Below are positions 4,449 to 45,859 of a stretch of DNA of 64,000 bases, one piece after another. The stretch comes from Paludibacteraceae bacterium (lineage in GTDB: Bacteria > Bacteroidota > Bacteroidia > Bacteroidales > Paludibacteraceae), in contig JAZKZF010000023.1 of NCBI GenBank assembly GCA_045612525.1, positions 14,097 to 78,096 on the forward strand, given 5' to 3'. The notes below the pieces were generated by a model. That model was not told where the DNA came from. It ran no database searches and worked only from the letters and a program-made list of their open reading frames with translations. A program made the translations under genes and the position numbers. How positions within the stretch are numbered: position 1 is the stretch's first letter; the number at the start of each line of letters is the position of its first letter.

Positions 4449-4519
4449 GCGGCATTAGCACATCGGTAGTGCATCGGCTTCCCAAGCCGAGGAGGCGGGT
4501 TCGATTCCCGTATGCCGCT
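4449..4519 (+). tRNA. tRNA-Gly (anticodon CCC)
   Basis: Cloverleaf folded by hand. The acceptor is GCGGCAT/ATGCCGC, the D stem GCAC/GTGC, the anticodon stem TCGGC/GCCGA with loop TTCCCAA, and the T arm GCGGG-TTCGATT-CCCGT. It is 71 nt with no encoded CCA. Confidence 0.9.
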
Positions 4520-4523
4520 CTTG

Positions 4524-4554
4524 GTGAGGCGAGAGGCGAGAGGTTAGAGGCGGG
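4524..4554 (+). repeat. GAGGCGAGAGG / GGTTAGAGG array forming the tRNA-rnpB spacer
   Basis: The sequence is GTGAGGCGAGAGGCGAGAGGTTAGAGGCGGG. A 20-nt stretch (4533-4552) is identical to 10268-10287 inside sdaA. Confidence 0.7.
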
Positions 4555-4556
4555 AA

Positions 4557-4888
4557 TATATAGTGTATCGGTCTATCGCGGGATATGGGAAGAAAAGCGT
4601 ATTGCTTTAATCCCCTATTCCGAGGAAAGTCCGGGCAGCGTAGAGCACCACCGCGGTTAATGGCCGTCAGGCAGTGATGTTTGGTCCCTGCAAAAGAGAC
4701 GAGTAATCCTTAGGGAGGAAGTGATACGAGCATACGGTGGGCTGCAATTCCAAGTATACCGACGTTAGAGCGCTGCTCGCGCGAGTTGGAGGGTAGGAAG
4801 CGATAGAAGCATGTAGCAATACATTGCTCAAGATTAATGGTAGACGCCCTTATAGGGTACAGAACCCGGCTTATAGGTACACTATATA
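4557..4888 (+). ncRNA. rnpB: RNase P RNA, bacterial type A
   Basis: It carries the universal conserved regions GAGGAAAGTCCGGGC (4622-4636) and ACAGAACCCGGCTTA (4859-4873). The 5' TATATAGTGTA pairs with the 3' TACACTATATA (P1), and a T-run follows. The ends are approximate. Confidence 0.9.
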
Positions 4889-4931
4889 TTTTTATTAAGA
4901 TAAGTAATAAAAGAATAATCATAAAAAAGAC

Positions 4932-6883: not shown

Positions 6884-7270
6884 ATGTGCGAGCGCAAATC
6901 AACCATAGCCGGTTTAGCGAAAGGAGTGTATAAGGATAGAGGCAGCAAGTTTCTAGCTTTTGCCGAGCCCATCAATGATGAGGATGAGGCAAAAGCACGT
7001 ATAGCTTGGTATAAAAAGAAGTACCACGATGCTCGCCATGTCTGCTATGCCTATCGACTAGGCGAAAACCTTTGGCGCACGAAAGATGATGGCGAACCCC
7101 ATGGTACGGCGGGTATGCCTATTCTTCGCAGCATTGATGCGCAACAATTGGACAATATCTTGGTAGTGGTAGTGAGGTATTTCGGTGGAACACTACTAGG
7201 TACTGGTGGGTTGATGGTAGCTTATCGAGAGGCGACGAAAGAGGCGTTGAAGGATGCGATGAGGGTATAG
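6884..7270 (+). CDS. IMPACT/YigZ family protein, N-terminal domain only
   Basis: 128 aa with motifs [23 protein letters not shown] and [15 protein letters not shown]. It lacks the C-terminal domain of full-length YigZ. Confidence 0.7.
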
Positions 7271-7364
7271 GTGAAAGGTGAAAGGTGAAAGGTGAAAGGT
7301 GAAAAGTGAAAGGTGAAAGGTGAAAGGTGAAAAGTGAAAGGTGAAAAGTGAAAGGTGAGAGGTT
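7271..7364 (+). repeat. 13 tandem heptamers (9x GTGAAAG, 3x GTGAAAA, 1x GTGAGAG) plus GTT, filling the whole spacer
   Basis: Counted base by base. The array runs from the TAG stop (7268-7270) to the coaD ATG (7365). Confidence 0.95.
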
Positions 7365-7811
7365 ATGAAGATAGCAATATTTCCAGGAAGTTTTGATCCA
7401 TTTACGATAGGACACTATGACATCGTGATGCGTGGATTGGAGTTGTTTGATGAAGTAATCATCGGCATAGGTCGCAATGGTACGAAACAAGCCACGTTCC
7501 CCCTTGAGGAGCGTCTATCGGCCATCCAGCGTGTGTTTGAACATGAACCACGTGTGCGCACAATCCTATATCGTGGATTAACAGTGGATTTTGCCACAGA
7601 GTGCGGTGCACAATTTATTTTGCGTGGTGTGCGGTCGGTACAAGACTTTGAATATGAGCGCAGCATGGCCGAGGCCAATAAGCAGTTGAGCGGCATAGAA
7701 ACAGTGTTGCTATATACAAGGCCGGAGTATGCGCATATATCCTCCACCCTAGTGCGTGATTTGTACGCCCATCATAGAGATATAAAACAATATTTACCTC
7801 CAGTAAGATGA
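7365..7811 (+). CDS. coaD: phosphopantetheine adenylyltransferase
   Basis: 148 aa. The N-terminus is [21 protein letters not shown] (HxGH-type nucleotidyltransferase motif), and ISSTLVR lies near the C-terminus. Confidence 0.95.
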
Positions 7812-9364
7812 TGAAACGATATTTTGTGATCATATCCGTGTGGGTATTCGCATCTGCATTACTAGCAGAGTCGGCAACTGCTCGTATTGATAAAAACCTG
7901 ACCATCTATACGGATGTGATGCGTCAGTTGGATATCAACTATGTAGATACGCTGAACTACGATGACCTGATAGAAACGAGCATCAATCAGATGCTGCGCA
8001 AGGTGGACCCATATACGTTGTATATTCCGAAGAGTGAGGATGATGAATTGCGTCGTATAACGCAGGGTAAGTATGGTGGTGTTGGTTCGCTGATCATGTA
8101 TCGCGACAGCAATGTGTATGTGAGTGAGTTGTACGAGGGTATGCCTGCTCAGTTGGCAGGTTTGTTGCCCGGTGACCGCTTTGTAAAAGTGGATGGTGTA
8201 GACTGCGAGGGTAAGAACACAAAGGAGGTGTCAGATTGCTTGCGTGGAAAGCCAGGTACTACGATTAGTTTGGTAGTGGAGCGTGATGGTGAGTTGCTGA
8301 CAAAGGAGGTGACTAGACGCGATATTCACTTGCCTGCAGTGGGATGTGCTACGGTACTGGAAGACTCGATAGGTTATATCTTCTTTAATGAGTTTACGAG
8401 CAATTCGTCACAAGAGTTCTTGGTGGCATTGGATGCGATGGTGCAATCTAACGGGATTAAGCGATTGATAATTGATTTGCGCGGTAATGGTGGTGGTTTG
8501 ATAGACGAGGCAATACAGATCGTGGGATACTTCGTGCCACGTGATACAGAGGTGGTGTCGACGAAGGGTAAAACAGAACGCAGTAATCGTTCGTATAAGA
8601 CTCAGACGTCGCCTATCTTCCCGGATATGCCATTGGTGGTATTGGTAAACGACCAGTCGGCTTCGGCGTCGGAGATAGTGGCAGGTTCGTTGCAAGACTT
8701 GGGTCGTGCTACGATAGTGGGTGAGCGTACGTTTGGCAAGGGTTTGGTGCAGAATATCCGTCCGATAGCATATGGTGGTCATCTAAAAATAACGACAGCC
8801 AAATACTATCTGCCTTCGGGTAGATGTATCCAAGCCATAGACTATGCAGAGCGTCAACGTGGTCATGCATTGCATCGTGATACAGCAGGCGGTATATTGC
8901 CAGATGTGGTACTGACGGATTCGCAGAAGTTGGATATCACGTATAACCTATATCGTGACCATCTGTTTTTTGATTACGCCACTCGCTACTACAAGGAGCA
9001 TGACTCGATAGCGTTGGCAGGTGAGTTTAGGTTGACAGATAGCGATATCGAGGCATTTTGCCAATATCTGGATGAGAAAGAGTTTAGTTATGAGACAGAG
9101 ACGGGTCGCTACTTGGGTGAGCTGATAGATATGGCCAAGCAGGAAGATATCGACTCGACGCTGCTAGCGGAGTTGGAGGCGTTTAAGCCGAGATTGACAG
9201 AGGATTATCGTGCTGCTATCGTTCGTAATAGAAGCGAGGTGGAGCAGTTGTTAGGTGGTGAGATCGTGAAGCGGTACTATTATCATCGTGGTTACTACGA
9301 ATATCTATTGCGCTACGATAAAGATGTGAAGCGTGCAGTGGAAGTGGTTGCTGCCCAAGAATAA
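7808..9364 (+). CDS. S41 family C-terminal processing peptidase with PDZ domain
   Basis: 518 aa with a signal peptide. Motifs DLRGNGGG, SASASEIVAGSLQD and GERTFGKG are present. There is a 4-nt ATGA overlap with coaD. Confidence 0.88.
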   Translation: MMKRYFVIISVWVFASALLAESATARIDKNLTIYTDVMRQLDINYVDTLNYDDLIETSINQMLRKVDPYTLYIPKSEDDELRRITQGKYGGVGSLIMYRDSNVYVSELYEGMPAQLAGLLPGDRFVKVDGVDCEGKNTKEVSDCLRGKPGTTISLVVERDGELLTKEVTRRDIHLPAVGCATVLEDSIGYIFFNEFTSNSSQEFLVALDAMVQSNGIKRLIIDLRGNGGGLIDEAIQIVGYFVPRDTEVVSTKGKTERSNRSYKTQTSPIFPDMPLVVLVNDQSASASEIVAGSLQDLGRATIVGERTFGKGLVQNIRPIAYGGHLKITTAKYYLPSGRCIQAIDYAERQRGHALHRDTAGGILPDVVLTDSQKLDITYNLYRDHLFFDYATRYYKEHDSIALAGEFRLTDSDIEAFCQYLDEKEFSYETETGRYLGELIDMAKQEDIDSTLLAELEAFKPRLTEDYRAAIVRNRSEVEQLLGGEIVKRYYYHRGYYEYLLRYDKDVKRAVEVVAAQE

Positions 9365-10813: not shown

Positions 10814-13081
10814 ATGGATAATAAAAGCTTTAAGAAGAAGTTCGCCATTTGGTTTTGGAGTATTGTGGTAGCAGGAATTGGTGCGATTGTGTTGCTATTT
10901 TGGTTGATAACCAAAGGTTGGTTGGGTTATTTGCCTCCATTGGATGAGTTGCAAAACCCTAAGAATAAGTATGCCACCGAGGTAATATCTAGCGATATGC
11001 AATTGTTGGGTAGGTATTACCGCAATGAGAATCGTGTGAGCGTGGATTATGCAGATATCTCTCCCAATATGATCAATGCGCTGATTGCGACTGAGGATGT
11101 GCGCTATTATGACCATACTGGTGTGGATTTCAAATCGCTAATGCGTGCAGTGATGAAATTGGGCAAGGCCGGTGGTGGTAGTACCATTACCCAGCAGTTG
11201 GCCAAGCAGTTGTGGTCTCCCCGTGCGAACAATATCTTTGAGCGTGCGCTGCAAAAGCCGATTGAATGGGTGATAGCAACTAAGTTAGAGCGGTTGTACT
11301 CGAAGGAAGAGATACTGACAATGTATTTGAATCAGTTTGATTTTTTGTACAATGCAGTAGGTATTAAGTCAGCCGCTCAAGTGTATTTCAGTACGACTCC
11401 TGCCGAGCTGACGATAGAGCAGTCTGCGATGCTAGTAGGTATGTGTAAGAATCCTGCTCTGTATAACCCTCGTCGTAGGCCAGAGCGTGCGCTGAGCCGC
11501 CGTAACACGGTACTGAGTCAGATGTACAAGTACGATTATATCACGGAGCAAGTGTATGACTCGCTGAAGGTGCTACCAATTGATTTGAAATATCAGTCGG
11601 TGGATCATAAGCAGGGTTTAGCCCCTTATTTCCGTGAATACTTGCGCCAAGTGTTGACAGCCAAAGAGCCGAAGAAGAGCAACTACTCGGAGTGGAATAT
11701 GCTGCAATACGATATTGACAAACGCCAATGGGATGAGAATCCACTATATGGTTTCTGTAACAAGAATCACAAGCCAGATGGCACGCCCTATGACCTATAT
11801 CAAGATGGTTTGCGTGTGTATACTACGATTGACTCACGTATGCAACAATATGCAGAGGAGGCAGTAAGCGAGCATATGCAGGAGTTGCAAAAGAGTTTCT
11901 TCCGTGAGAAACGCAACAAATCGTATGCGCCCTTCTCTCAGGATTTGACTCCTGAAGATATTGATGGTATCATGAATCGTTCGATGCGTCAGACCGACCG
12001 TTATCGTGGACTGAAGCAGCAAGGATTGAGCGAGGCGGATATTAAGAAATCGTTTAAGACACCAGTGGCGATGCGTGTATTCTCATACAATGGTCTGATA
12101 GACACGGTGATGACACCAATGGATTCGATCAAGTGGAACAAGCATTTTCTGCGTTGTGGTTTTATGTCGATGGATGCGCATTCGGGTGCCGTGAAAGCGT
12201 ATGTGGGAGGTCCGAACTTTGCTCATTTTCAATACGATATGGTAACGTCTGGTCGTCGTCAGGTGGGTTCTACGATAAAGCCGTATCTATTTACGCTGGC
12301 GATGGATGAGGGCATGTGGCCATGCGATAGTACGGTGAATGACTCCATCACATTGGTGGATGCCAATGGTGTGGCGTGGACTCCTCGTGATGACCACCAT
12401 GCTAACCAATACGAGATGGTAACGCTGAACTGGGGTTTGGAGAAGTCTAGCAACTGGATTACGGCGTATCTGATGTCGCTATTTACGCCAGAGCAGTTGG
12501 TGCGTATGATGCGTTCGTTTGGTATAGAAGGTCAATTGGACCCAGTGGTGAGTTTGTGTCTCGGTCCGTGCGAAGTGAGCGTCAAGGAGATGGTGGATGC
12601 TTATACGACGTTCCCGAACAAGGGTATTCGTGTAGAGCCACTATATGTGACGCGTATCGAGGATAATAATGGAAATATCCTGGCTACCTTCACGCCTAAG
12701 ACTTATGAGATTATCAGCGAGACGACATCGTATAAGATGATCTATATGCTGCGCAATGTGATGGATCATGGTACGGGTGTGCGTGCTCGTTTCCGCTATG
12801 GTCTGAAGGCTCCGATGGGTGGTAAGACGGGTACATCGCAAAACCACTCGGATGGATGGTTTGTAGGTTTCACTCCATCGTTGGTGAGTGGTGTGTGGGT
12901 AGGTGGTGAAGACCGCAGTATCCACTTTGATAATATGGCCGCAGGACAAGGTGCTAATATGGCACTACCAATATGGTCTATCTATATGCAAAAGATATAT
13001 GCTGACGAGGAGTTGGGATATAGCGTAGAGGAGCAATTTGATGTTCCAGAGTGGTTTGACGCAGAGGCGGGGTGCAAGTGA
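10814..13081 (+). CDS. mrcA: penicillin-binding protein 1A (bifunctional transglycosylase/transpeptidase)
   Basis: 755 aa with an N-terminal TM anchor. GT51 motifs EDVRYYDHTGVD and GGSTITQQLAK are present, together with transpeptidase motifs STIKP and KTGTS. Confidence 0.9.
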   Translation: MDNKSFKKKFAIWFWSIVVAGIGAIVLLFWLITKGWLGYLPPLDELQNPKNKYATEVISSDMQLLGRYYRNENRVSVDYADISPNMINALIATEDVRYYDHTGVDFKSLMRAVMKLGKAGGGSTITQQLAKQLWSPRANNIFERALQKPIEWVIATKLERLYSKEEILTMYLNQFDFLYNAVGIKSAAQVYFSTTPAELTIEQSAMLVGMCKNPALYNPRRRPERALSRRNTVLSQMYKYDYITEQVYDSLKVLPIDLKYQSVDHKQGLAPYFREYLRQVLTAKEPKKSNYSEWNMLQYDIDKRQWDENPLYGFCNKNHKPDGTPYDLYQDGLRVYTTIDSRMQQYAEEAVSEHMQELQKSFFREKRNKSYAPFSQDLTPEDIDGIMNRSMRQTDRYRGLKQQGLSEADIKKSFKTPVAMRVFSYNGLIDTVMTPMDSIKWNKHFLRCGFMSMDAHSGAVKAYVGGPNFAHFQYDMVTSGRRQVGSTIKPYLFTLAMDEGMWPCDSTVNDSITLVDANGVAWTPRDDHHANQYEMVTLNWGLEKSSNWITAYLMSLFTPEQLVRMMRSFGIEGQLDPVVSLCLGPCEVSVKEMVDAYTTFPNKGIRVEPLYVTRIEDNNGNILATFTPKTYEIISETTSYKMIYMLRNVMDHGTGVRARFRYGLKAPMGGKTGTSQNHSDGWFVGFTPSLVSGVWVGGEDRSIHFDNMAAGQGANMALPIWSIYMQKIYADEELGYSVEEQFDVPEWFDAEAGCK

Positions 13082-13107: not shown

Positions 13108-15123
13108 ATGAAATTATATCTTCGATACATACTGATATGTCTTGGTAGTTGGCTCATATCGATGGGTACTGCTTCCGCCCAACTGAATACCGACCGCATA
13201 ACTGCGATTGGACGTAATGCGTTGTACTTTGACGACTATGTGCTGAGTATCCAATACTTTAACCAAGTGATCAAACTCAAGCCCTACCTAAGCGAACCCT
13301 ACCTACTCCGTGCGATTGCCAAGATACAATTGGGTGACTATATGGGCGCGGAACTGGATTGTAACGCCTCCATCGAGCGTAATCCATTTCAGCCAGGTGC
13401 GTACTATACCCGTGGATATATTTACCGCCAAACCAATCAATTGGAGAAAGCCGAAGAAGACTTTAATCAGGCATTGGTTTTCGCCCCAGAGAATCGCACG
13501 TATATCGCTATGCGAGCAGATGTGTTGGCGGAGATGGAGGAATATGACTTGGCGTTGCAGGACATCAATCACCTGATTCATCGTGATCCTCAATCGGCCT
13601 CACTGCACTTTGAGAAAGGTAGTATATGCCTACGTAGCAACGATACAGTATGCGCATTGGAAGCATTTGGTAAAGCTACAGCGTACGACTCTCAAAACCC
13701 TGCTAACTGGTCGGCACTGGGATTGGTGCAACTGATGTTGGATGAGCAAGATGAGGCTCTGGCATCGCTAAGCAAATCTATCGAACAGGGTAGCAAATGG
13801 GCTGGCGACTATATCAATAGAGGTATCATCTACTATCGCAAACATAACTATCGCAGTGCCTTGGCAGACTATGATAAGGCCGTAGCACTCTCGCCTCGTG
13901 ATGCGCAATGCTACTACAATCGTGGTGTGCTGCGCCAAGAGTTGGGCGACTATAATCGTGCATTGGAGGACTTTACACAAGCAATCAACTTTGCGCCAGA
14001 TCGAATAGAACTATACTACCAACGCGGTATGGTACAACTGCAATTGCGTCAATGGCAGGATGCGCTCAACGACTTTCATATCATCATGGCGCGTTATCCC
14101 TATTTCTTACCTGCATACTACCTCGCTGCTCAAGCAGAGACATCGCTAGGCAATGGAAAGGAAGCATATCAACTGCGCCAACAAGCATATCATCTAGAGC
14201 AGCATAAAGATAGTATCCAATCGCTACAAACAAATATGCAATTGGCAGATAATCAACCACAACAGCGTGACCGTAGGAAAGAGTTTTCTGCTTTGGCGGC
14301 ACAAAACCAAGAGTCGAACGAGGAAGAGAATAAATACGATAGTGACACGCGTGGAACGGTGCAAAAACGCTATACTGATGTGGTGAATGAGCCAAATATA
14401 TTCCTCTCGTATTACGCAACCAACAGCAATGCCAATTCGCTACGCCAGACGAATTACTCACATGCAACAGTGGATGCCTATAACCGCACGATGCAGTTGC
14501 CCGCACCATTGCGCTTTACCACGCAGGAGATGACGCTGACAGCGGATATGGTGAATCAACACTTTGCCCAGATCAGTAATCTGTCTCATCAAATTGACCT
14601 ACTTGAGCAGATAGCACGCCCACAGAAGGAAAGCAATACAGAATTGTGCGCTGCGTATATTGCCCGTGCATTTGAGTTTGCATTGGTGCAAGACTATTCT
14701 TCGGCATTGGATGATGTGACCCGTGCTATATTGCAGGATGGCAGGCTATACTTCGCATATTTCTGCCGAGCAAACTGGCGGTATAAATTGTTGGAATACA
14801 AGCGTGCGATGGGCGAGACGACAGACAAGGCTGACTTTGAATTGATGATGCGTGACTATGATTACGTGATTAACCACCTACCCGACTTCTCGTTTGCCTA
14901 CTACAACAAAGCCAATATGCTCTGTATCCAACAAGATTTCAAGGCGGCGATATCCTATTACACGCAAGCGATTGCTACAGATAGCGACTTTGCTGAGGCA
15001 TACTTTAATCGAGGGTTGACCTATATCTATATAGGCGAAAATGATAAAGGCATAGCCGACCTCAGTAAGGCTGGCGAATTAGGAATATATCAAGCATATA
15101 ACTTAATCACACGCTTCCAATGA
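13108..15123 (+). CDS. tetratricopeptide (TPR) repeat protein, secreted/periplasmic
   Basis: 671 aa with a signal peptide. Many 34-aa TPR-like repeats (..A..Y..RG..Y...G.Y..A..D...A) occur at both ends. Confidence 0.75.
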   Translation: MKLYLRYILICLGSWLISMGTASAQLNTDRITAIGRNALYFDDYVLSIQYFNQVIKLKPYLSEPYLLRAIAKIQLGDYMGAELDCNASIERNPFQPGAYYTRGYIYRQTNQLEKAEEDFNQALVFAPENRTYIAMRADVLAEMEEYDLALQDINHLIHRDPQSASLHFEKGSICLRSNDTVCALEAFGKATAYDSQNPANWSALGLVQLMLDEQDEALASLSKSIEQGSKWAGDYINRGIIYYRKHNYRSALADYDKAVALSPRDAQCYYNRGVLRQELGDYNRALEDFTQAINFAPDRIELYYQRGMVQLQLRQWQDALNDFHIIMARYPYFLPAYYLAAQAETSLGNGKEAYQLRQQAYHLEQHKDSIQSLQTNMQLADNQPQQRDRRKEFSALAAQNQESNEEENKYDSDTRGTVQKRYTDVVNEPNIFLSYYATNSNANSLRQTNYSHATVDAYNRTMQLPAPLRFTTQEMTLTADMVNQHFAQISNLSHQIDLLEQIARPQKESNTELCAAYIARAFEFALVQDYSSALDDVTRAILQDGRLYFAYFCRANWRYKLLEYKRAMGETTDKADFELMMRDYDYVINHLPDFSFAYYNKANMLCIQQDFKAAISYYTQAIATDSDFAEAYFNRGLTYIYIGENDKGIADLSKAGELGIYQAYNLITRFQ

Positions 15124-16037
15124 TGATAAGAACAAGGAATAAGGAACAAGGAGTAAAGACAGCTAGACGAATAATTCTTATTTGTCTTGTTTCTTGGTTC
15201 TTGACTCCTGTATCTATCATGAGTCAAGTGTTATACCGCATATCGGGTAACTCGGCGCTCGCACCATCGTATATATTGGCCACCAATCGGATGGTGGATA
15301 TGCGGTTTATTGATACCATCCCGAATGCATTTAAGTGCTTTGCTGAGTGCGACAAAGTGATTACCGAATTTGCGATGCAAGACTACGAGGCGATAGCCGC
15401 CTTGCGTCAGGCAGCCCTCCTACCCGACTCAGTAAGATTGCGCAATTTTTATAGCGATGAGCAATATCAGGAGATAGACGAGAGTCTTCGCATTAATCTG
15501 GGTATGGGTTTGGACAAATTAGGTAGGATGAAACCTTCGTATTTGGCAGAGATGTATCGCAATGAATTGATGAAACGTTGGCTGAACTATGATGAAGAAT
15601 GTACGATGGAGACATTCTTTGAGAAGGTGGCTTTGCAAACGGATATACCGGTATTGGGATTGGATGATGTGGGCGAGACGATGTATATGCTATTTGACCG
15701 TGAGCCATTTCATTGGCAATGCGATGAACTACTGAAAGTGATAGAATATCCTGAGAAAGAAGTGCGTTTTGAACGCCAATTGGTGGAGATGTACAAATAT
15801 GGTCGTTTGGCTGATATGGCATATTTTGTGAAAGGACCTGACAACCAGACATCGCTATCGTACTCTGATTATCAGGTGTTTGCTAAACGTAATAAAGTAT
15901 GGGTGAAACGACTAACACCCTATTTGAAAGAGGGTAAAGCATTTATCACACTGAATGCCATCTATCTAGGAGGAGATGATGGATTGTTGGCGCAACTGAA
16001 AGCCGCAGGGTATCGAGTGAAGGCGGTGAATAAGTAG
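15120..16037 (+). CDS. TraB/GumN-like family protein (divergent)
   Basis: 305 aa. LYRISGN..APSYILATNRM aligns with the family motif LW.I....S.YLFGT.H, but the G and H positions are replaced. There is a 4-nt overlap with the TPR gene. Confidence 0.5.
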   Translation: MMIRTRNKEQGVKTARRIILICLVSWFLTPVSIMSQVLYRISGNSALAPSYILATNRMVDMRFIDTIPNAFKCFAECDKVITEFAMQDYEAIAALRQAALLPDSVRLRNFYSDEQYQEIDESLRINLGMGLDKLGRMKPSYLAEMYRNELMKRWLNYDEECTMETFFEKVALQTDIPVLGLDDVGETMYMLFDREPFHWQCDELLKVIEYPEKEVRFERQLVEMYKYGRLADMAYFVKGPDNQTSLSYSDYQVFAKRNKVWVKRLTPYLKEGKAFITLNAIYLGGDDGLLAQLKAAGYRVKAVNK

Positions 16038-16124
16038 GTTATAGGTTAGAGGTTAAAGGTTAAAGGTTAGAGGTTAAAGGTTAGAGGCAAGAGGTTAGAG
16101 GTTAGAGGTTAGAGGCGAGAGGTT
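16038..16124 (+). repeat. 12 tandem heptamers (GTTATAG, GTTAGAG, GTTAAAG, GCAAGAG, GCGAGAG) plus GTT, filling the whole spacer
   Basis: Counted base by base from the TAG stop (16035-16037) to the ATG (16125). The terminal GAGGTTATG junction matches the one at 7357-7367. Confidence 0.95.
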
Positions 16125-17189
16125 ATGGGTAAGATAGGTTCGTTCTTCAATCGCAATGCGTTGTCATTGGCCATGCTAGTAGGTGTGGTGGGTTGTTCTG
16201 TGTTTAGACATCTGACGTGGATGTTACCACCACTGATATTCCTAATGCTGTTCTTTACCTTCTGCAAGATTAATCCGCTTGATTTGAGATTGAGGAGATG
16301 GCATTGTGTAGTATTGTTGACGCAATTGCTACTGGGGATAGGACTATATTATGGACTACAAGTAATCGGCAATGAGGTGATAAGGCGATTAGGTGAAGGG
16401 GTGATAGGAGGAAACGATATTGCTATTATCTCACAGGGATTGATGCTGTGTGTGCTGATGCCAACGGCTACTGCGGCACCAATCATAGCTGGTAAACTAG
16501 GGGGAAGTATTCAAAATTTGACCTCATTCACGCTGTTAAGCAATATCGCTACGGCGATTATTGTGCCCGTATTCTTTCCGATAGTCAATCCGAGTGCGGG
16601 TATCGAGTTTGATGTTGCATGCTGGATGATACTCAAGAAGATTAGTCCACTATTGCTGGGACCATTCTTTGCAGCGTGGTTGTTGCGGATTGGCTATAAT
16701 GCATATCATCGCCATAAAGGTACGGGCAAGACATTTACCTTGTCTGCAAAATGGGCACCGATGCCATTCTACGTATGGGTAGTGACGCTGATTATCCTGA
16801 TGGCAGATTTGACCTATACTCTGATTCATCAGGAGTATAGCTACTGGACAATAGGTATCTTATGCGTGGGTTCGATAGGAACGTGTCTGTTGCAGTTTGG
16901 ATTGGGTCGCAGGATTGGTTTGCGTTTTCCTGCCACGACCAAGGGTGAGGATTATCATGATGTGCTTATCAATCCAGCTGCAGCGAATTATAGTATGGAA
17001 CAGGTGAGTCGTATCACAGCGGGGCAAGCCTTTGGACAGAAGAACACTACCCTAGCCATCTGGATGGCTCAAGCGTATCTCGTGCCTGTAGCATCGATGG
17101 CCCCTGCCGCCTATATCATTTGGCAGAATCTATTTAACTCGATTCAACTGAGTAGAGAAGGACGAAAAGCAAACAAAAAAGGAGCGTGA
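16125..17189 (+). CDS. bile acid:sodium symporter (BASS/SBF)-like membrane transporter
   Basis: 354 aa and polytopic. The segments MPTATAAPIIAGKLGG...LLSNIATAIIVP and GQKNTTLAIWMA resemble BASS core motifs. Confidence 0.55.
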   Translation: MGKIGSFFNRNALSLAMLVGVVGCSVFRHLTWMLPPLIFLMLFFTFCKINPLDLRLRRWHCVVLLTQLLLGIGLYYGLQVIGNEVIRRLGEGVIGGNDIAIISQGLMLCVLMPTATAAPIIAGKLGGSIQNLTSFTLLSNIATAIIVPVFFPIVNPSAGIEFDVACWMILKKISPLLLGPFFAAWLLRIGYNAYHRHKGTGKTFTLSAKWAPMPFYVWVVTLIILMADLTYTLIHQEYSYWTIGILCVGSIGTCLLQFGLGRRIGLRFPATTKGEDYHDVLINPAAANYSMEQVSRITAGQAFGQKNTTLAIWMAQAYLVPVASMAPAAYIIWQNLFNSIQLSREGRKANKKGA

Positions 17190-17201
17190 TGCTCCTTTTT
17201 T
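17177..17201 (+). terminator. intrinsic terminator overlapping the stop codon
   Basis: The stem is GGAGC-GTGAT-GCTCC with the TGA stop in the loop. An A-run precedes it and TTTTTTAT follows. Confidence 0.65.
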
Positions 17202-17204
17202 ATT

Positions 17205-17429
17205 GGTGTAAGGTGGAAGGTGAAAGGTGAAAGGTGAAAGGTGAAAGGTGAAAAGTGTATGGTGGATGGTGTATGGTGTAAGGTGTAAAGTGTAAAGGCG
17301 GGGCGGCTGAGCCGCAATTTCTGGGACTTTAATCTATAAACTATTATAACCTCTAACCTTTAACCTATTATAAACTATAACCTCTAGTCTTTAACCAATA
17401 ACCTATTATAACCTTTAACCTATAACCTA
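17205..17429. repeat. composite element: 13 GGTGnAn heptamers / GC core hairpin / inverted GTTAnAG-type array
   Basis: The left arm is 17205-17295. The core AAAGGCGGGGCGGCTGAGCCGCA is 17294-17316. The right arm is 17331-17429 and reads TAGGTTATAGGTTAAAGG.. on the minus strand, starting at the aminotransferase stop codon. Confidence 0.9.
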
Positions 17430-18632
17430 AACTAACTTAGCCAATGCCTCTTTCATGCGGCGCATAGCCTCGATGATAAGGTCTTCGCTGGTGGCATAGG
17501 AGAAGCGAATGCAGTTGTCTTCGCCAAAAGCACTACCTGATACGCATGCCACGTGTGCCTCTTGCAAGAGGTAGGTGACCAACTCATCGGCGTTGTGGAT
17601 GGTTTGTCCGTTGTATTGCTTACCAAAGAAGGCCGTGATATCAGGGAAGAGGTAGAATGCACCTTGTGGCTCAAGCACCTTCATACCAGGGATATCCTTA
17701 GCAAGTCCTACGATCAAGTTGCGACGACGATGGAAGGCTTGACGCATTTCCTCAACGCAGGCTTGTGGACCTGTGTATGCAGCTTCTGCAGCTTTTTGCG
17801 CGATGGTAGTGGCACAGCTGATGACTTGTCCTTGCAAGCGTTTCACTGCAGTAATCAAGTCTTTGTCATGGCTTGCCAACCATCCGATACGATAACCAGT
17901 CATGGCATAAGCTTTGCTGACACCATTGATGATAACGAGGCGGTCTTCGAGCTCAGGGAACTGTGCTAAGGTCTCGTGCTTGCCAGTATAGAGAATGTGT
18001 TGGTAAATCTCGTCAGCGAGCACAACCACTTGTGGGTGACGCTTGAGTACTTCTACTAATGCCTTGAGGTTGTCCAAAGTGTAAACGGAGCCTGTAGGGT
18101 TGTTAGGAGAGCAGAGCATTAGGAGTTTGGTAGCAGGAGTGATGGCAGCCTCGAGTTGCTCGGCAGTGAGGCAGAAATTGTTGTCCATCGTTGTTTTGAC
18201 GAGCACGCTCTTGCCTTGGGCAATCTTCACCATCTCTACATAACTTACCCAGCATGGTGTAGGCATGATGACCTCATCGCCGGGGCCAATCAATGCTTCG
18301 ATAGCATTGCAGATGGCTTGCTTAGCACCTACTGATACAACTATCTCGTTGGCATTGTATGGGCGCACAGGGTAATCCTTGATATCACGATTGAGTGTGT
18401 CGGCTATTGCTTGACGCAAAGCTGGGAAACCAGGTGTAGGACCATAATGTGAGATATCGTTGTTGATGGCATCAATAGCGGCTTGCTTGACATGTGCAGG
18501 AGCAGGGAAATCAGGTTCGCCCAATGAAAGACCAATCACATCTACTCCTTCGGCACGGAGTTGTTGGCACAAAGCAGCCACTTGCAAAGTAGCTGATTCT
18601 TCAAGTGCTGCAATACGTTGTGAAATCTGCAT
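17427..18632 (-). CDS. pyridoxal-phosphate-dependent aminotransferase (aspartate aminotransferase-like, class I)
   Basis: 401 aa with motifs NNPTGSVY and SKAYAMTGYRIGW (PLP lysine). Confidence 0.88.
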   Translation of the reverse strand: MQISQRIAALEESATLQVAALCQQLRAEGVDVIGLSLGEPDFPAPAHVKQAAIDAINNDISHYGPTPGFPALRQAIADTLNRDIKDYPVRPYNANEIVVSVGAKQAICNAIEALIGPGDEVIMPTPCWVSYVEMVKIAQGKSVLVKTTMDNNFCLTAEQLEAAITPATKLLMLCSPNNPTGSVYTLDNLKALVEVLKRHPQVVVLADEIYQHILYTGKHETLAQFPELEDRLVIINGVSKAYAMTGYRIGWLASHDKDLITAVKRLQGQVISCATTIAQKAAEAAYTGPQACVEEMRQAFHRRRNLIVGLAKDIPGMKVLEPQGAFYLFPDITAFFGKQYNGQTIHNADELVTYLLQEAHVACVSGSAFGEDNCIRFSYATSEDLIIEAMRRMKEALAKLV

Positions 18633-18682
18633 AAGTTGAGTGATGAATTATAAGTTATGAATTATGAGTTCTATTTTGGGTG

Positions 18683-18690
18683 CAAAGGTA
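18683..18690 (-). promoter_or_regulatory. -7 promoter box TACCTTTG for the aminotransferase gene
   Basis: The plus strand reads CAAAGGTA, about 50 nt upstream of the start at 18632. Confidence 0.55.
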
Positions 18691-19221
18691 GTGAAAATTT
18701 ATAAGATACGCAAATTTTTAGGGTACTATATACGAGTTGATAGAAAAAATTATCTCCTAGCCCTAATCGGGCAGAAATCTTATAAATCTAATTATTATCG
18801 CTTATTCCGCCCTGTTACGCGGTATTCCGTAATAAATTGCCACCGCTCCTTCGTCGAAACTGGCTTGCAACAATGAACTCACCTTCGTTCGTTAGGGTTG
18901 CCGCCGTTTCTCCTCTCCCCACTCGCTCACGAAGCTCGTGGGGGCCCCGATTGGAGCTCGTCGCTGAATCTTCAGTAAAATGTAGCGGAAGCAAAAACTA
19001 AAATGAGATTAGACAAAATTTTTAACGGCTAATTGGACGAATGGAACGAAGAAATGTTTAAGATAATTTATGTTGTATTTTTAAAACAAAAATACGGCAC
19101 AAGTGCCTACAAAAATATATATAAATCAAGAGATAGATTTTATTGGGGTTGAAAGAATGCGCTAGGCGCATTGGCAACCCACACAAAAAGAAGTTGTACG
19201 CCGAGAAGATAATGCATATTA

Positions 19222-25625: not shown

Positions 25626-25707
25626 ATTGGATGGTAATTGAGTGGTAACGGAATGGTAACGAAATGGTAACGTGAAAGAATGTAGAAAGGATGTAGAAAG
25701 AATGTAT
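25626..25707. repeat. short-unit arrays (ATGGTAAC-type x4, then GAATGTAGAAAG-type x2-3) abutting the SDR stop codon
   Basis: Read directly: ..GGATGGTAATTGAGTGGTAACGGAATGGTAACGAAATGGTAACG.. then AATGTAGAAAGGATGTAGAAAGAATGTA. Confidence 0.7.
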
Positions 25708-26537: not shown

Positions 26538-26546
26538 ATATTTTTT

Positions 26547-26657
26547 AGTTGAAAGTTTAAAGTGTAAAGTTTAAAGGCAGGGCGGCTATGCCGCAGTACC
26601 TAGCCTATAACCTATAGCGTAGCGTCCTATAGCCTCAAAGAGGCGTCCTATAACCTA
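26547..26657. repeat. composite element: GTTTAAAG-type array / GC core hairpin / inverted CCTATAACC-type array
   Basis: The core AAAGGCAGGGCGGCTATGCCGCA (26573-26595) matches the core at 17294-17316 at 20 of 23 positions. The right end CCTATAACCTA contains the stop codon of the upstream gene. Confidence 0.85.
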
Positions 26658-27896
26658 CTTTTCAGGATACCACATTTGTTCGTACTTGAGGGCTTCCTTC
26701 TTGAGGTAAGCAGGGATGTCCTTGTCGCACTCGTGGCACTTCATATCGAGGGTGTACATACGCGCTACGCAGTAATTAGAGCGTTTGCACTCGGAGTGGT
26801 ATTGCTCCTCGCGCATCTTATTGACGAAGTCGGTGTCGCGTACGAGTGCGTGGCCTATTTGCACGAAGTCGAATCCTGCAGCGAGGGCAGTCTCGGCATT
26901 CTCACGTCCCATGACGCCACCGACATAGATGAGAGGCATCTTGAGCGCTGCGCGGAATTGCTTAGCTGTATCGAGGAAGAAAAGTTCTTTGAAAGGCACC
27001 GTAGGAATCATCAAGTGACCAACGAAGCGCAATGCAAGGCGTAGCCACCAGAAAGACCATGGGTTCATGTAGTGCGCCAGCCTCTTGATAGGCATAGCAC
27101 CACCCATGACGGTGAAAGGTGCCTTGCTGACAAAGCCTGCGGTGAGGACGAGAGCGTGTACGCCATGCTTCTCAATCTCTTGTGCGATGCGGATGCACTC
27201 CTCTACTTTGAGACCAGACTTGAAGCCGTCGTACATATTGGTCTTGACAACGACTGCCATATCGTCGCCTGCGTGCTCCATGACCTCAGCCATGACCTCG
27301 TTCATGAAACGCATGCGGTTCTCGAGCGAACCTCCGTACTCATCGCGACGGCGGTTGGTATATGGCGAGAGGAATTGTGAGATGAGATATCCGTGACCAG
27401 CGTGAATCTCCACGCAGTCGAAGCCACACTCACGGCAGAAATCCACGGCATGACCAAATGCCTTGACGATGTCTTTGATTTCCTCTTTCTTAAGCGCACG
27501 ATGGAGCGTTGGGGAATAGAGGTTGAAGCCGGTGCTGGCGCCTACTGGTAGGCAGTTGCAGGTATAGAAGTGGGTCATGTTGCCACAGTGACCGAGCTGG
27601 ATGCTGGCTTTAGCGCCTTCGGCATGGATACCGTCGGTGAGGCGCTTGAGGTCCTCTTTGATTTCGTCGTGGATATAGAGTTGACCATCGAAAGACACAC
27701 CTGAGCGAGTGACCGAGCAGTATGCTACGGTGGTCATGGCTGCCCCACCCCGTGCAACGGCGGTATGATAGTTGTAGAGATCTTGACTAGGTTTGTTGCC
27801 GTATGCCATATTCTCGAAAGCGGCACTACGTATAGCGCGGTTGCGCAGAGTGATTGGACCGAGTTTGTGCTCGGTGAAAAGGAGGTTATTGTTCAT
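26655..27896 (-). CDS. NADH:flavin oxidoreductase, Old Yellow Enzyme family (candidate 3-oxo-steroid ene-reductase)
   Basis: 413 aa with the OYE TIM-barrel signature HAGHGYLISQFLSPYTNRRRDEYGGSLENR and a C-terminal Cys cluster CKRSNYC...CHEC. Confidence 0.85.
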   Translation of the reverse strand: MNNNLLFTEHKLGPITLRNRAIRSAAFENMAYGNKPSQDLYNYHTAVARGGAAMTTVAYCSVTRSGVSFDGQLYIHDEIKEDLKRLTDGIHAEGAKASIQLGHCGNMTHFYTCNCLPVGASTGFNLYSPTLHRALKKEEIKDIVKAFGHAVDFCRECGFDCVEIHAGHGYLISQFLSPYTNRRRDEYGGSLENRMRFMNEVMAEVMEHAGDDMAVVVKTNMYDGFKSGLKVEECIRIAQEIEKHGVHALVLTAGFVSKAPFTVMGGAMPIKRLAHYMNPWSFWWLRLALRFVGHLMIPTVPFKELFFLDTAKQFRAALKMPLIYVGGVMGRENAETALAAGFDFVQIGHALVRDTDFVNKMREEQYHSECKRSNYCVARMYTLDMKCHECDKDIPAYLKKEALKYEQMWYPEK

Positions 27897-45851: not shown

Positions 45852-45859
45852 TTGATAGG

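What the first reader, a model, noticed from the sequence alone, without database searches (positions are those of the whole stretch)
16035..16127. Second stop-to-start heptamer array (GTTAnAG x12) with the same phase and the same GAGGTTATG junction
Twelve heptamers plus GTT run exactly from the TAG stop of the TraB-like gene to the ATG of the BASS-like transporter gene. The first unit is GTTATAG and the start region is GTTATGG, so both the stop (..TAG) and the start (GTTATG) look like members of the array. The last 9 nt (GAGGTTATG) are identical to the coaD junction at 7359-7367. The 11-mer TAGGTTATAGG, with TAG as the functional stop codon, also ends two other unrelated genes: the aminotransferase (complement of 17419-17429) and the OYE reductase (complement of 26647-26657). 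This points to either array growth seeded at stop/start codons or a mobile or copied module that supplies stop and start signals.
Basis: seen in the sequence. Interest (0 to 1): 0.72.

Follow-up and report, generated by a model that had tools for sequence, protein, structure and literature searches.

The report
Variable heptamer repeat between two genes
The 87-base gap between two co-oriented genes of a gut Paludibacteraceae bacterium is filled by a 7-base tandem repeat that gains and loses whole units between strains; it is an example of the known bacterial heptamer microsatellites, not a mobile module that supplies stop and start signals.

Summary
Window 16035-16127 holds 13 in-register heptamers (TAGGTTA, then R-AGG-TTA/CGA/CAA units) plus TG. 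The TAG stop of a TraB/GumN-like gene is inside unit 1, and the ATG of a distant SBF/BASS-like gene overlaps the last unit.

The decisive evidence comes from conspecific strains with 97-99% identical flanks. They carry the same array with 4, 6 or 7 units instead of 13. The first unit (TAGGTTA) and the last (GAGGTTA+TG) never change. Every indel of 3 nt or more across 12.7 kb lies inside a heptamer array, and in the simple arrays each is a multiple of 7.

In other species the orthologous spacer runs from a 4-5 nt overlap to 359 nt. Across 2.27 Mb of relatives, period 7 is the dominant tandem period. About 3% of genes have such an array abutting the stop codon and about 3% abutting the ATG.

The best explanation is a slippage-driven heptanucleotide microsatellite that grew in place, bounded by selection on the stop and start codons. 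The stop and start positions are ancestral, so the array does not supply them. A tuning role in expression is not excluded. This is a new member of a known kind, of moderate interest.

The parts
15120..16037 (+). TraB/PrgY/GumN-family gene. Its TAG stop (16035-16037) forms positions 1-3 of the first heptamer.
   Evidence: ORF list. Pfam PF01963, E 2.2e-34. The stop sits at the conserved C-terminal position in about 80 relatives.
16035..16127 (+). The reported array: 13 in-register heptamers plus TG, running from the stop codon to the start codon. It contains only 2 C and is predicted unstructured.
   Evidence: sequence, TRF score 124. (no RNA or DNA structure, no G-quadruplex, stops in all three frames, no ATG/GTG/TTG before the real ATG). 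(13, 7, 6 and 4 units in conspecific strains).
16125..17189 (+). Gene for a 354-aa membrane protein, distantly SBF/BASS-like. Its ATG overlaps the last heptamer (GAGGTTA|TG).
   Evidence: The N-terminus aligns from residues 1-8 in relatives.
7268..7367 (+). Sister array: TAGGTGA, then (AAGGTGA/AAAGTGA) x12, then GAGGTTA plus TG. It runs from the TAG of the UPF0029/Impact_N gene to the ATG of coaD.
   Evidence: It has 14 units in the window and 5 units in L162, L168 and L169, with the same first and last units.
17172..17204 (.). Terminator-like hairpin (AAAAAAGGAGCgtgaTGCTCCTTTTTT) just past the end of the 354-aa gene. It marks the end of the inferred transcription unit.
   Evidence: sequence.
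17205..17298 (+). GGTGAAA/GGTGTAA heptamer array (about 13 units) after the terminator. Copy number varies between strains.
   Evidence: A 49-nt indel against L168 and a 14-nt indel against L162. Strain alleles are shown.
17299..17325 (+). GC-rich hairpin core GGCGGGGCGGCTGAGCCGCA between the two opposed arrays.
   Evidence: Present at this site in the seven conspecific contigs that reach it (L162-L166, L168, L169).
17330..17429 (-). GGTTATA/GGTTAAA-type array starting at the TAG stop of the aminotransferase gene (17427-18632, minus strand).
   Evidence: Its length and first units vary between strains.
26538..26657 (-). Spacer from the OYE-type reductase stop (TAG, 26655-26657) to the ATG of the short-chain dehydrogenase gene. 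It contains TAGGTTATAGG, two small GGAC-hairpin-TATAGG units, the GCGGCnnnGCCGC core and four CTTTAAA-type heptamers.
   Evidence: It is non-homologous to conspecific L168 from the stop codon onward.
4521..4552 (+). Heptamers of the same family (GGCGAGA, GGTTAGA) filling the gap between tRNA-Gly and RNase P RNA.
18639..18670 (-). CATAATT-type heptamers in the aminotransferase leader, between a Bacteroidetes-type promoter (18683-18714) and the ATG (18632).
   Evidence: Orthologous leaders in relatives carry CATAATT or AACTGTC arrays.

Best explanation
The feature is a heptanucleotide microsatellite (a long simple-sequence repeat, or VNTR) that expanded in place inside the spacer between two co-oriented genes. 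The likely mechanism is slipped-strand mispairing during replication or repair.

Shown:
- Units are gained and lost in whole 7-nt steps between strains of one species.
- The first unit (which contains the TAG stop) and the last unit (which overlaps the ATG) do not change.
- The stop and start codons sit at ancestral positions.
- The same kind of array is frequent at gene boundaries throughout this bacterial family, with many different unit sequences.

Inferred:
- The array spreads until purifying selection on the two coding sequences stops it, so it fills the spacer exactly. A 7-nt insertion inside an ORF would shift the reading frame.
- The stop codon's second and third bases have been drawn into the unit pattern (unit RAGGTTA goes with stop TAG).
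- The two genes are co-transcribed, since there is no promoter or terminator between them.
- A filter on composition decides which arrays survive in transcripts: almost no C on the mRNA strand, so no self-pairing.

On this reading the array is mostly tolerated filler. Its only consequence is to separate two cistrons that were once tightly spaced.
For: 1. Conspecific contigs L162-L169 have 97-99% identical flanks and the same gene order. Their spacers are 24, 38 and 45 nt, against 87 nt in the window. All are 7k+3. Internal units differ in number and order, while TAGGTTA and GAGGTTA-TG are invariant. The 38-nt allele occurs in four samples and the 45-nt allele in two.
2. In a 12.7-kb alignment, every indel of 3 nt or more lies in a heptamer array: 63, 42/49, 49 and 14 nt, all multiples of 7, plus a complex 10+62 nt change in the array after the aminotransferase stop.
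3. Orthologous spacers in other species range from -5/-4 nt (overlap) through 8-24 nt to heptamer arrays with other units (GGTTTAA x3-5, TTGAGAG x6). One has a period-8 array and others have 143-359 nt hairpin repeats.
4. Period 7 dominates the tandem repeats: 231 TRF rows, plus 96 of period 14 and 66 of period 21, in 2.27 Mb. That gives 174 arrays of at least 4 copies with 80 distinct units.
5. In the first data set, 35 of 1087 stops and 29 of 1049 starts are abutted by period-7 arrays, against 0-7 at lags 3-6 and 8-13. In the full set, 56 stop-abutting arrays fall at 20 independent gene families.
6. Stop codons match the in-register triplet of the unit more often than under random pairing: 1.63 against 1.20 of 3, with none of 5000 permutations reaching the observed value. 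Register 0 gives the best match.
7. Heptamers of the same family also fill the tRNA-Gly to RNase P RNA gap, so no translation signal is needed for them to occur.
8. The array is predicted unstructured as RNA (z = +0.84, centroid unpaired) and as DNA (MFE 0).
9. Heptamer-rich long SSRs in non-coding DNA are an established class. This rests on MacGregor 2015 (PMC4679880), which summarises Mrazek et al. 2007.
Against: - Slippage itself is inferred from the pattern of 7-nt indels and was not observed. Short-read metagenome assemblies can collapse repeats, although the different unit orders and the recurrence of alleles across samples argue against this.
- Several features go beyond what neutral slippage predicts. 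Arrays between co-directional genes lack C on the sense strand in 58% of cases against 24% expected, while lack of G is not enriched.
- The same unit families recur at unlinked loci and in different species: AAGGTGA in 8 loci and GAGGTTA in 4.
- Both stop-to-start arrays in the window end in the identical GAGGTTA-TG, and this is fixed in all strains.
- Arrays persist at the same junctions across species with only about 60-70% protein identity. The PBP-gene stop has one in 13 loci and the TraB stop in 8.
- All four arrays in the window that start at a stop codon follow TAG, although TAG is only 10 of 48 stops.
- Orthologous loci are not independent samples, so the p-values are optimistic.
Confidence: 0.65

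Rival explanations
1. The array is a selected intercistronic leader that works as an expression rheostat. A C-free, unstructured spacer lets the downstream ATG be used independently of the upstream gene. It also offers no C-rich site for Rho loading on an untranslated stretch. Copy-number changes would tune the ratio of the two proteins.
For: - C depletion on the sense strand is specific: 58% against 24%, with no matching G depletion.
- No structure is predicted.
- There is no alternative start codon before the real ATG, and there are stops in all three frames.
- The boundary units are invariant in all strains.
- Arrays persist at the same junctions across distant species.
- Some relatives have overlapping or very close stop and start. 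By its title and abstract, PMC10666635 reports that translational coupling needs overlaps or very short distances, so an 87-nt spacer must change how the second gene is initiated.
- MacGregor 2015 proposed translational roles for heptamer repeats upstream of start codons. A Nostoc preprint reports expression effects when heptamer repeats are deleted (10.1101/2022.06.06.494920).
Against: - Eighty different unit sequences argue against a sequence-specific signal.
- Strains tolerate 4 to 13 units and frame-independent spacers.
- The same arrays occur after terminators, after the last gene of convergent pairs and between two RNA genes.
- Leaders in this lineage are A-rich with about 15% G, so a G-rich leader is atypical rather than optimal.
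- Part of the C depletion follows from units that incorporate the C-free stop codon.
- No expression data are available.
Confidence: 0.2
2. The array is a mobile or copied module: a small non-autonomous element, or a segment spread by ectopic recombination, that brings its own TAG and ATG context (TAGGTTATAGG ... GAGGTTATG) to gene junctions.
For: - TAGGTTATAGG occurs 4 times against 0.01 expected, three of them at functional stops.
- The same last unit plus ATG is found at two junctions 8.7 kb apart.
- The spacers after the aminotransferase and OYE genes share their architecture and a hairpin core found only twice in the window.
- The OYE-side copy is absent from conspecific L168, with homology breaking exactly at the stop codon.
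- The same unit families occur at unlinked loci.
Against: - The stop and start positions are ancestral and conserved in relatives without arrays.
- The TraB-side 11-mer is absent from all conspecific strains, which read TAGGTTAGAGG.
- The array has almost no C, so it cannot have inverted terminal repeats or a hairpin.
- Strain differences are internal whole-unit changes, not presence or absence of an element.
- The hairpin core was not found in any of the 160 related loci from other lineages held at that point.
- No transposase is linked to it in the window.
Confidence: 0.07
3. The array is a tandem Shine-Dalgarno or ribosome standby site. Each unit carries GAGG/AGGT (or AGGTGA in the coaD array), which is complementary to the 16S rRNA 3' end. 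The array would then recruit ribosomes to the downstream gene.
For: - GAGGT and AGGTGA are 5-6 nt matches to the canonical SD consensus AAGGAGGTGA (established knowledge).
- The penultimate unit places GAGG 9 nt from the ATG.
- The closest sister lineage has TTGAGGAG x3 directly before the ATG (L081).
Against: - The lineage shows no SD signal upstream of starts. SD-like 4-mers are found in 9% of -18..-4 windows against 13% of control windows, and G is about 15% at every leader position. This fits the known weak SD use of Bacteroidota (my own knowledge, not tested here).
- Most arrays in relatives have units with no SD resemblance, such as CATAATT, AATAATC and TTTCAAT.
- Arrays of the same units also lie after terminators and between RNA genes.
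Confidence: 0.05
4. The array is a set of binding sites for a sequence-specific DNA- or RNA-binding protein, such as a regulator or nucleoid protein, that recognises RAGGYNA every 7 nt.
For: - Related units (AGGTGAx, AGGTTAx, AGGCGAx) recur in several species and loci and are mixed within single arrays (L024 and L034).
- The literature speculates about binding proteins for heptamer repeats in Beggiatoaceae and Nostoc.
Against: - There is no conserved unit across the family: 80 distinct units.
- Copy number is unconstrained between strains.
- No candidate binding protein was identified, and the periodicity rather than the sequence is what is conserved.
Confidence: 0.05

Closest known systems
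Long simple sequence repeats (LSSRs) of prokaryotes with 5-11 nt units, in which heptanucleotides predominate (Mrazek et al. 2007, as summarised in PMC4679880)
   Same: Head-to-tail heptamers lie in non-coding DNA of a non-pathogen. Period 7 dominates every other period. Copy number changes in whole units between strains. Polymerase slippage is the proposed origin.
   Different: This lineage (gut Paludibacteraceae known only from MAGs) is not among the groups I found described as repeat-rich. The exact stop-to-start filling, the register shared with both codons and the sense-strand C depletion are quantified here. I did not find them reported in the papers I read.
TAACTGA intergenic direct repeats of marine Beggiatoaceae, cyanobacteria and five Bacteroidetes (MacGregor 2015, PMC4679880)
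   Same: Tandem heptamers in 'forward' orientation lie immediately upstream of start codons, and some lie immediately downstream of stop codons. Canonical SD sites are scarce. Close strains differ by indels in 7-nt increments. Paludibacter propionicigenes, of the same family, is one of the listed hosts.
   Different: The unit here is RAGGTTA, not TAACTGA. No TAACTGA tandem occurs in the window or in 169 related loci. Many unrelated units coexist here, whereas the TAACTGA case is defined by a single unit.
Cyanobacterial short tandemly repeated repetitive (STRR) heptamers and Nostoc 'contiguous heptamer repeats' near start codons (bioRxiv 10.1101/2022.06.06.494920)
   Same: Heptamer tandem arrays lie in non-coding regions close to or overlapping start codons. 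Their function is debated.
   Different: The phylum and the unit sequences differ. The STRR units I recall from memory (CCCCAGT, TTGGTCA, CAACAGT) do not match. The Nostoc work concerns promoter-proximal arrays, not stop-to-start spacers within operons.
Phase-variable simple sequence repeats (contingency loci) of host-adapted bacteria
   Same: Both are hypermutable tandem repeats whose copy number varies between strains by slippage.
   Different: Contingency repeats sit inside ORFs or between promoter elements, so a unit change switches the gene on or off. This array lies between a stop and a start, contains no promoter, and its observed alleles leave both ORFs intact.
REP/BIME-type intergenic palindromic repeats
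   Same: They are placed just after stop codons in intergenic spacers. The neighbouring GGAC-hairpin-TATAGG units (26600-26650, and in relatives) resemble them superficially.
   Different: The reported array has no palindrome at all. No RAYT-type transposase was seen. The hairpin units in relatives have variable stems, unlike REPs.

Membership tests
Heptanucleotide long simple sequence repeat (LSSR / VNTR) | Head-to-tail tandem copies of a 5-11 nt unit, many copies, high identity | tested here: met
   13 units of 7 nt, 84% matches, TRF score 124.
Heptanucleotide long simple sequence repeat (LSSR / VNTR) | Copy number polymorphic between close strains in whole-unit steps | tested here: met
   13, 7, 6 and 4 units in conspecific contigs. 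All simple-array indels are multiples of 7. Caveat: the data are short-read assemblies.
Heptanucleotide long simple sequence repeat (LSSR / VNTR) | Non-coding location, with heptamers the predominant repeat period in the genome or lineage | tested here: met
   The array lies between a stop and a start. Period 7 gives 231 TRF rows, against 36-51 each for periods 8-10 and 12 and 155 for period 11. Lag-7 windows at gene ends number 35 and 29, against 0-7 at lags 3-6 and 8-13.
TAACTGA repeat system (MacGregor 2015) | Unit sequence TAACTGA in direct tandem | tested here: not met
   No TAACTGATAACTGA in the window (1 mismatch allowed) or in 169 loci.
TAACTGA repeat system (MacGregor 2015) | Forward orientation ending within a few nt of a start codon that lacks an SD | tested here: met
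   The array overlaps the ATG. No SD usage is seen in the lineage.
Cyanobacterial STRR | Specific heptamer units (recalled from memory: CCCCAGT, TTGGTCA, CAACAGT) in heterocystous cyanobacteria | tested here: not met
   The units here are RAGGTTA/RAGGCGA. The host is Paludibacteraceae, Bacteroidales.
Phase-variation SSR (contingency locus) | Repeat inside an ORF or between promoter elements, so that unit changes switch expression | tested here: not met
   The repeat lies wholly between the stop and the start. No TTTG-N17-23-TAnnTTTG or sigma-70-like promoter lies in it. All alleles keep both ORFs intact.
REP/BIME or MITE | Palindromic unit or terminal inverted repeats; target-site duplication; multiple dispersed copies with conserved ends | tested here: not met
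   TRF's span 16036-16125 holds 35 G and 2 C, so no reverse-complement arms are possible. DNA MFE is 0 and RNA z is +0.84. Strain differences are internal unit changes. A genome-wide copy census was not possible.
Shine-Dalgarno ribosome-binding site | Complementarity to the 16S 3' end at about 5-10 nt from the start, in a lineage that uses SD | tested here: inconclusive
   GAGG lies 9 nt and 2 nt from the ATG, but the lineage shows no SD enrichment: 9% against 13% in the control window. No 16S sequence is available in the window.
CRISPR array | Repeats of about 23-50 nt separated by unique spacers of similar length | tested here: not met
   The units are 7 nt and contiguous, with no spacers.

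The most novel reading that the evidence does not exclude
Boundary-anchored heptamer arrays are not mere filler. They would be a lineage-wide, evolvable 'spacer rheostat': C-free, unstructured linkers kept at particular junctions for long evolutionary times. Strain-to-strain unit gain and loss would tune how far a downstream cistron is uncoupled from its upstream neighbour, through reinitiation distance, Rho access or mRNA decay. A still more radical version, also not excluded, is a dedicated lineage-specific process that seeds arrays at stop codons.
Probability: 0.18. Interest if true: 0.65.

Novelty: new member of a known kind. Interest (0 to 1): 0.38.

Why it matters
The function of heptamer tandem repeats in bacterial intergenic DNA has been an open question since they were found in cyanobacteria.

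This locus shows that abundant, uncultured gut Paludibacteraceae carry them at roughly one array per 13 kb, often filling the gap between two genes exactly. Public metagenomes already contain natural allelic series (4, 6, 7 and 13 units) in otherwise near-identical strains. That makes it possible to test, from metatranscriptomes or simple reporters, whether copy number affects expression.

Practically, these arrays break short-read assemblies: two contigs begin at or just before this array (L161, L166). They also create false 'novel motif' signals at stop and start codons, and they could serve as strain-typing markers. If the arrays are only tolerated filler, the finding is ordinary genome natural history.

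Tried and rejected
- Exact look-ups of three window proteins (TraB-like, aminotransferase, CoaD) found nothing. Conspecific contigs were reached only through the 98% identical BASS-like cluster.
- NCBIfam gave no hit for either flanking protein. Pfam gives only a sub-threshold SBF hit for the 354-aa protein.
- No Rfam family reaches its gathering score in or near the array. The only two matches in the window are tRNA and RNase P RNA.
- The sigma-70 scan was uninformative: 6 sites found against 5.9 expected. The Bacteroidetes promoter pattern is real in the window (15 matches against 1.6 expected), but none lies in the spacer.
- G-quadruplex folding of the GG-every-7 RNA is not predicted.
- No hairpin or structure is predicted for either RNA or DNA.
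- TAACTGA membership is rejected.
- The GGGCGGCTnnGCCGC hairpin core was searched in the 160 related loci held at that point and not found. A looser pattern later found the core in seven conspecific contigs. I could not decide whether it marks a dispersed element.
- In spacers with at least 40 nt free, 14 arrays sit near the stop and 7 near the start, against 2 expected for each. I do not rely on this. My simple ORF caller mis-placed several downstream starts, notably for the TPR gene, and many of the cases are orthologous.
- The enrichment of stop triplets in units (65% against 36%) was not separated from the C-free composition, so I do not treat it as independent evidence.
No genome-wide motif census was therefore possible.
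Full report
**1. What is there**

Window 16035-16127 reads TAGGTTA TAGGTTA GAGGTTA AAGGTTA AAGGTTA GAGGTTA AAGGTTA GAGGCAA GAGGTTA GAGGTTA GAGGTTA GAGGCGA GAGGTTA TG. TRF calls it period 7, 12.9 copies, 84% matches, score 124.

The first three bases are the TAG stop of ORF 15120-16037, a TraB/PrgY/GumN-family protein (PF01963, E 2e-34). The last three bases are the ATG of ORF 16125-17189. That ORF encodes a 354-aa membrane protein with only a sub-threshold SBF/BASS match (E 0.0064). JGI names a 98% identical protein 'BASS family'.

Ten units fit GTTAnAG and two are variants (GCAAGAG, GCGAGAG).

The sister array at 7268-7367 runs from the TAG of a UPF0029/Impact_N gene to the ATG of coaD and ends in the same GAGGTTATG. 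The two spacers are 87 and 94 nt, both 7k+3.

TAGGTTATAGG occurs four times against 0.01 expected. Three of these are the functional stops of the TraB-like, aminotransferase and OYE-type genes. GAGGTTATG as a bare 9-mer is only marginally unexpected: 2 matches against 0.33 expected, and 8 of 100 shuffles reach 2.

**2. Host and context**

The TraB-like protein retrieved 80 loci, almost all titled Paludibacteraceae or uncultured Bacteroidales MAGs from ruminant, horse, human and other guts, at 64-87% identity.

The window has Bacteroidetes-type promoters (TTTG-N17-23-TAnnTTTG): 15 matches against 1.6 expected. None lies between the two genes. No terminator-like hairpin lies in the spacer. The first one follows the 354-aa gene at 17172-17204. 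The two genes are therefore probably co-transcribed. This is an inference.

The lineage does not use Shine-Dalgarno sites. SD-like 4-mers occur in 9% of -18..-4 windows against 13% of control windows, and leaders are A-rich with about 15% G.

**3. The decisive comparison: strains of the same species**

A protein search found a 90% cluster whose representative is 98% identical to the 354-aa protein. Its members lie on contigs L162-L169. The long contigs show the same gene order as the window: amylase, UPF0029, coaD, S41 peptidase, serine dehydratase, PBP, TPR, TraB, 354-aa gene, aminotransferase. The shorter ones match the part they cover. Flanks are 97-99% identical at the nucleotide level.

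TraB-to-354-aa spacer by strain:

| Source | Spacer (nt) | Units |
|---|---|---|
| Window | 87 | 13 |
| L168, L169 | 45 | 7 |
| L162, L163, L164, L165 | 38 | 6 |
| L166 | 38 | 6 |
| L167 | 24 | 4 |

Every spacer length is 7k+3. The first unit (TAGGTTA) and the last (GAGGTTA+TG) are invariant. Internal units differ in number and order.

The coaD array has 14 units in the window and 5 in L162, L168 and L169, again with fixed end units.

A MAFFT alignment of 12.7 kb (window against L168 and L162) places every indel of 3 nt or more inside a heptamer array. The indels are 63, 42 or 49, 49 and 14 nt, all multiples of 7. There is also a 10+62 nt change in the more complex array after the aminotransferase stop.

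The convergent spacer between the 354-aa gene and the aminotransferase gene is 237, 209, 195 or 115 nt, depending on strain.

This is the behaviour of a hypervariable microsatellite. One caveat applies: these are short-read assemblies, which can collapse repeats. However, the alleles differ in unit order, and they recur in independent samples and projects.

**4. Other species**

Where the two genes are adjacent in other species, the orthologous spacer takes these forms:
- -5 or -4 nt, an overlap (L084, L097)
- 8-9 nt (L085, L045)
- 16-24 nt (L082, L083, L090, L092, L093/L036; L081 has a period-8 repeat, TTGAGGAG x3)
- 27-42 nt of heptamer arrays with other units (GGTTTAA x3, x4, x5 in L028, L031, L029; TTGAGAG x6 in L086)
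- 75 nt (L035, L094)
- 143-359 nt of hairpin repeats mixed with heptamers (L019, L096, L024, L034, L030, L033, L088, L087)

In many relatives the 354-aa gene is absent altogether.

The TraB stop sits directly after the last aligned residue in most of the related loci. The N-terminus of the downstream protein aligns from residues 1-8.

The stop and start are therefore ancestral, the spacer is the fast-evolving part, and a tight or overlapping junction is a plausible ancestral state.

**5. A family-wide habit**

Across 2.27 Mb (160 loci plus the window), TRF rows by period are:

| Period | TRF rows |
|---|---|
| 7 | 231 |
| 14 | 96 |
| 21 | 66 |
| 11 | 155 |
| 8, 9, 10, 12 | 36-51 each |

There are 174 period-7 arrays of at least 4 copies, about one per 13 kb, with 80 distinct units.

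In the first data set, 35 of 1087 genes have at least 20 of 28 lag-7 matches starting at the stop codon, and 29 of 1049 ending at the ATG. Lags 3-6 and 8-13 give 0-7.

In the full set, 56 arrays abut stops at 20 independent gene families. Many units visibly share the codon:
- TGAAAAT x3 after TGA, TAATCAA/TCATCAA after TAA, TAGTGAA x2 after TAG
- ATGAAAA x4 and GTGATTT...ATGATTT at starts

Stop codons match the in-register triplet of the unit at 1.63 of 3 positions, against 1.20 under random pairing. None of 5000 permutations reaches the observed value, and register 0 is the best of the seven. The usual pattern is that the unit has R where the stop has T: TAAAGTG with AAAAGTG, TGAGTTG with AGAGTTG, TAGGTGA with AAGGTGA.

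Array density per type of intergenic region is as follows:

| Spacer type | Arrays | Total spacer (kb) | Arrays per kb |
|---|---|---|---|
| Co-directional | 60 | 117 | 0.51 |
| Convergent | 10 | 27 | 0.37 |
| Divergent | 11 | 45 | 0.24 |

**6. Composition**

Of 60 arrays between co-directional genes, 35 (58%) have no C in the unit on the sense strand, against 24% for random intergenic heptamers (p about 1e-8). Units lacking G are not enriched (22% against 24%).

The array here has almost no C (one search counts 35 G and 2 C in TRF's span 16036-16125). It is predicted unstructured as RNA (MFE -14.6 kcal/mol, z +0.84, empty centroid) and as DNA (MFE 0). No G-quadruplex is predicted. It has stops in all three frames and no ATG/GTG/TTG before the real start.

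Orthologous loci are not independent, so these p-values are optimistic. Part of the C depletion also follows from units that incorporate a C-free stop codon.

**7. Explanation**

The best reading is a heptanucleotide microsatellite that grew in place by slipped-strand mispairing.

A 7-nt gain or loss inside an ORF shifts the frame and is removed by selection. The same change anywhere from the stop codon to the start codon is harmless. The array therefore expands and homogenises until it meets the two coding boundaries.

This accounts for three features:
- the exact stop-to-start filling
- the fixed first and last units
- the stop and start looking like array members, because the last two bases of the stop and the A of the ATG are drawn into the unit pattern while selection holds the T of the stop and the TG of the ATG

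Heptamers of the same family also fill the tRNA-Gly to RNase P RNA gap (4521-4552) and lie after a terminator (17205-17298). Translation signals are therefore not required for arrays to occur.

The strain alleles, the ancestral codon positions and the family-wide statistics are shown. The slippage mechanism, co-transcription and the selective filter are inferred.

**8. What this does not explain**

- The specific C depletion on the sense strand.
- The recurrence of AAGGTGA-type and GAGGTTA-type units at unlinked loci and in several species.
- The identical, strain-invariant GAGGTTA-TG at two junctions.
- The persistence of arrays at the PBP stop (13 loci) and the TraB stop (8 loci) across species with about 60-70% protein identity.
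- All four arrays in the window that start at a stop codon follow TAG, although TAG is only 10 of 48 stops.

These points keep a functional reading alive, in which the array is an unstructured, Rho-invisible linker whose length tunes uncoupling of the downstream cistron.

An SD-standby reading is weakened by the absence of SD use in the lineage.

A mobile-module reading fails for this array but not clearly for the composite spacers after the aminotransferase and OYE genes. Those two share the layout [TAG-GGTTATA-type units][GCGGCnnnGCCGC core][TTTACAC/TTTAAAC-type array]. In L168, the only conspecific contig that covers it, the OYE-side spacer is replaced by unrelated sequence. Homology breaks exactly at the stop codon: AAG TAG against AAA TGA, with the same WYPEK C-terminus.

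**9. Comparison with what is known**

The class is known. Long SSRs with predominant heptamers were described by Mrazek et al. 2007, as summarised in PMC4679880.

TAACTGA repeats lie immediately upstream of start codons in Beggiatoaceae, cyanobacteria and five Bacteroidetes, including Paludibacter propionicigenes. Close strains of those organisms differ by 7-nt indels. Cyanobacterial heptamer repeats near start codons are also described.

The present array meets every LSSR/VNTR criterion I could test. It is not a TAACTGA or STRR array by unit sequence. It is not a contingency locus, REP, MITE or CRISPR array.

I did not find the following reported in the papers I read:
- the lineage
- the quantified stop/start anchoring
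- the shared register with both codons
- the natural allelic series

**10. Verdict**

It is a new member of a known kind, of moderate interest, with an open functional question that the natural alleles make testable.

Noticed in passing
window 17190-17430 and 26538-26660: Two spacers share a composite layout: heptamer array, GC-rich hairpin core (GGCrGGGCGGCTnnGCCGCA), then an opposed heptamer array. The core occurs only twice in the window (0.05 expected). The copy after the aminotransferase gene is present in the seven conspecific contigs that reach that site. The copy after the OYE gene is missing from L168, where unrelated sequence starts exactly at the stop codon. This may be a copied or mobile spacer module.
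   Followed up: partly
window 26600-26650; L010 ~10930-10990; L015 ~7910-7985; L019, L033, L034, L096 after the TraB stop; L121 ~4680-4725: There are repeated units of the form TAT(A/T)GG-AC-[GC-rich hairpin]. The stems differ in sequence from unit to unit but stay paired (for example GCCCTTCGGGC, GCCGCAGAGCGGC, GCTCGCGAGCGAGC). They are interleaved with TTATAGG/CTATTGG heptamers. Variable stems with constant flanks are unlike classical REPs.
   Followed up: partly
window 25631-25706, 45789-45854, 50526-50560; related loci: Period 11 is the second most common tandem-repeat period: 155 TRF rows in 2.27 Mb, mostly intergenic. Examples are ATGGTAACGGA x3.8 followed directly by GAAAGAATGTA x3 at 25631-25706.
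   Followed up: no
window ~16365-16400 (inside the 354-aa gene); L019 11266-11314, L024 11337-11372, L033 7505-7553, L034 11350-11377, L129: Heptamer-like repeats (GGCAATG AGGTGAT AAGGCGA TTAGGTGA in the window; TGGCTAT/GGGCGAT arrays in relatives) lie inside the coding sequence of the SBF-like protein, in what looks like a variable loop. Arrays of this kind apparently also invade coding DNA.
   Followed up: no
window 4521-4552: Heptamers of the same family (GGCGAGA, GGCGAGA, GGTTAGA) fill the gap between tRNA-Gly(CCC) at 4449-4520 and RNase P RNA at 4560-4889. Both follow a Bacteroidetes-type promoter at 4407-4438, which suggests a tRNA-RNase P RNA co-transcript with a repeat spacer.
   Followed up: partly
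window 18639-18670 (minus strand); L002, L003, L005, L018, L028, L035 upstream of the aminotransferase gene: The aminotransferase 5' leader, between the promoter (18683-18714) and the ATG, carries a G-poor heptamer array. It is CATAATT in the window, L002, L028 and L035, and AACTGTC in L003, L005 and L018. Arrays in leaders tend to lack G, whereas arrays after stops tend to lack C.
   Followed up: partly
window 45115-45189: There is a perfect 29-nt tandem repeat (2.3 copies, 100% identical): GTGTTTAGTGAACGCTGCGCTACTGTTTA. It combines TGTTTAG heptamers with a small GC hairpin and resembles the CTACTGTTTAGTGGACGC... units seen after genes in L033 and L088.
   Followed up: no
L081 7915-7945: The closest sister lineage (88% protein identity) has a period-8 array, TTGAGGAG TTAAGGAG TTGAGGAG, directly between the TraB stop and the ATG. 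L082, at similar identity, has a 16-nt non-repetitive spacer. Turnover is fast, and period 7 is not obligatory.
   Followed up: no
L161 1-30 and L166 1-45: Two metagenomic contigs of the same species begin at or two bases before this array. This is consistent with the repeats breaking short-read assemblies. L161 also has a 6-nt last unit (GGGTTA), the only allele not of length 7k+3.
   Followed up: no
L053 8130-8159, L054 10022-10051, L073 10960-10994: TTTGTCC-type heptamer arrays lie at the very start of ORFs, in what look like signal-peptide regions (for example ...LFVLCLLSFALCPAHA). This is another case of arrays overlapping coding sequence just inside a gene boundary.
   Followed up: no
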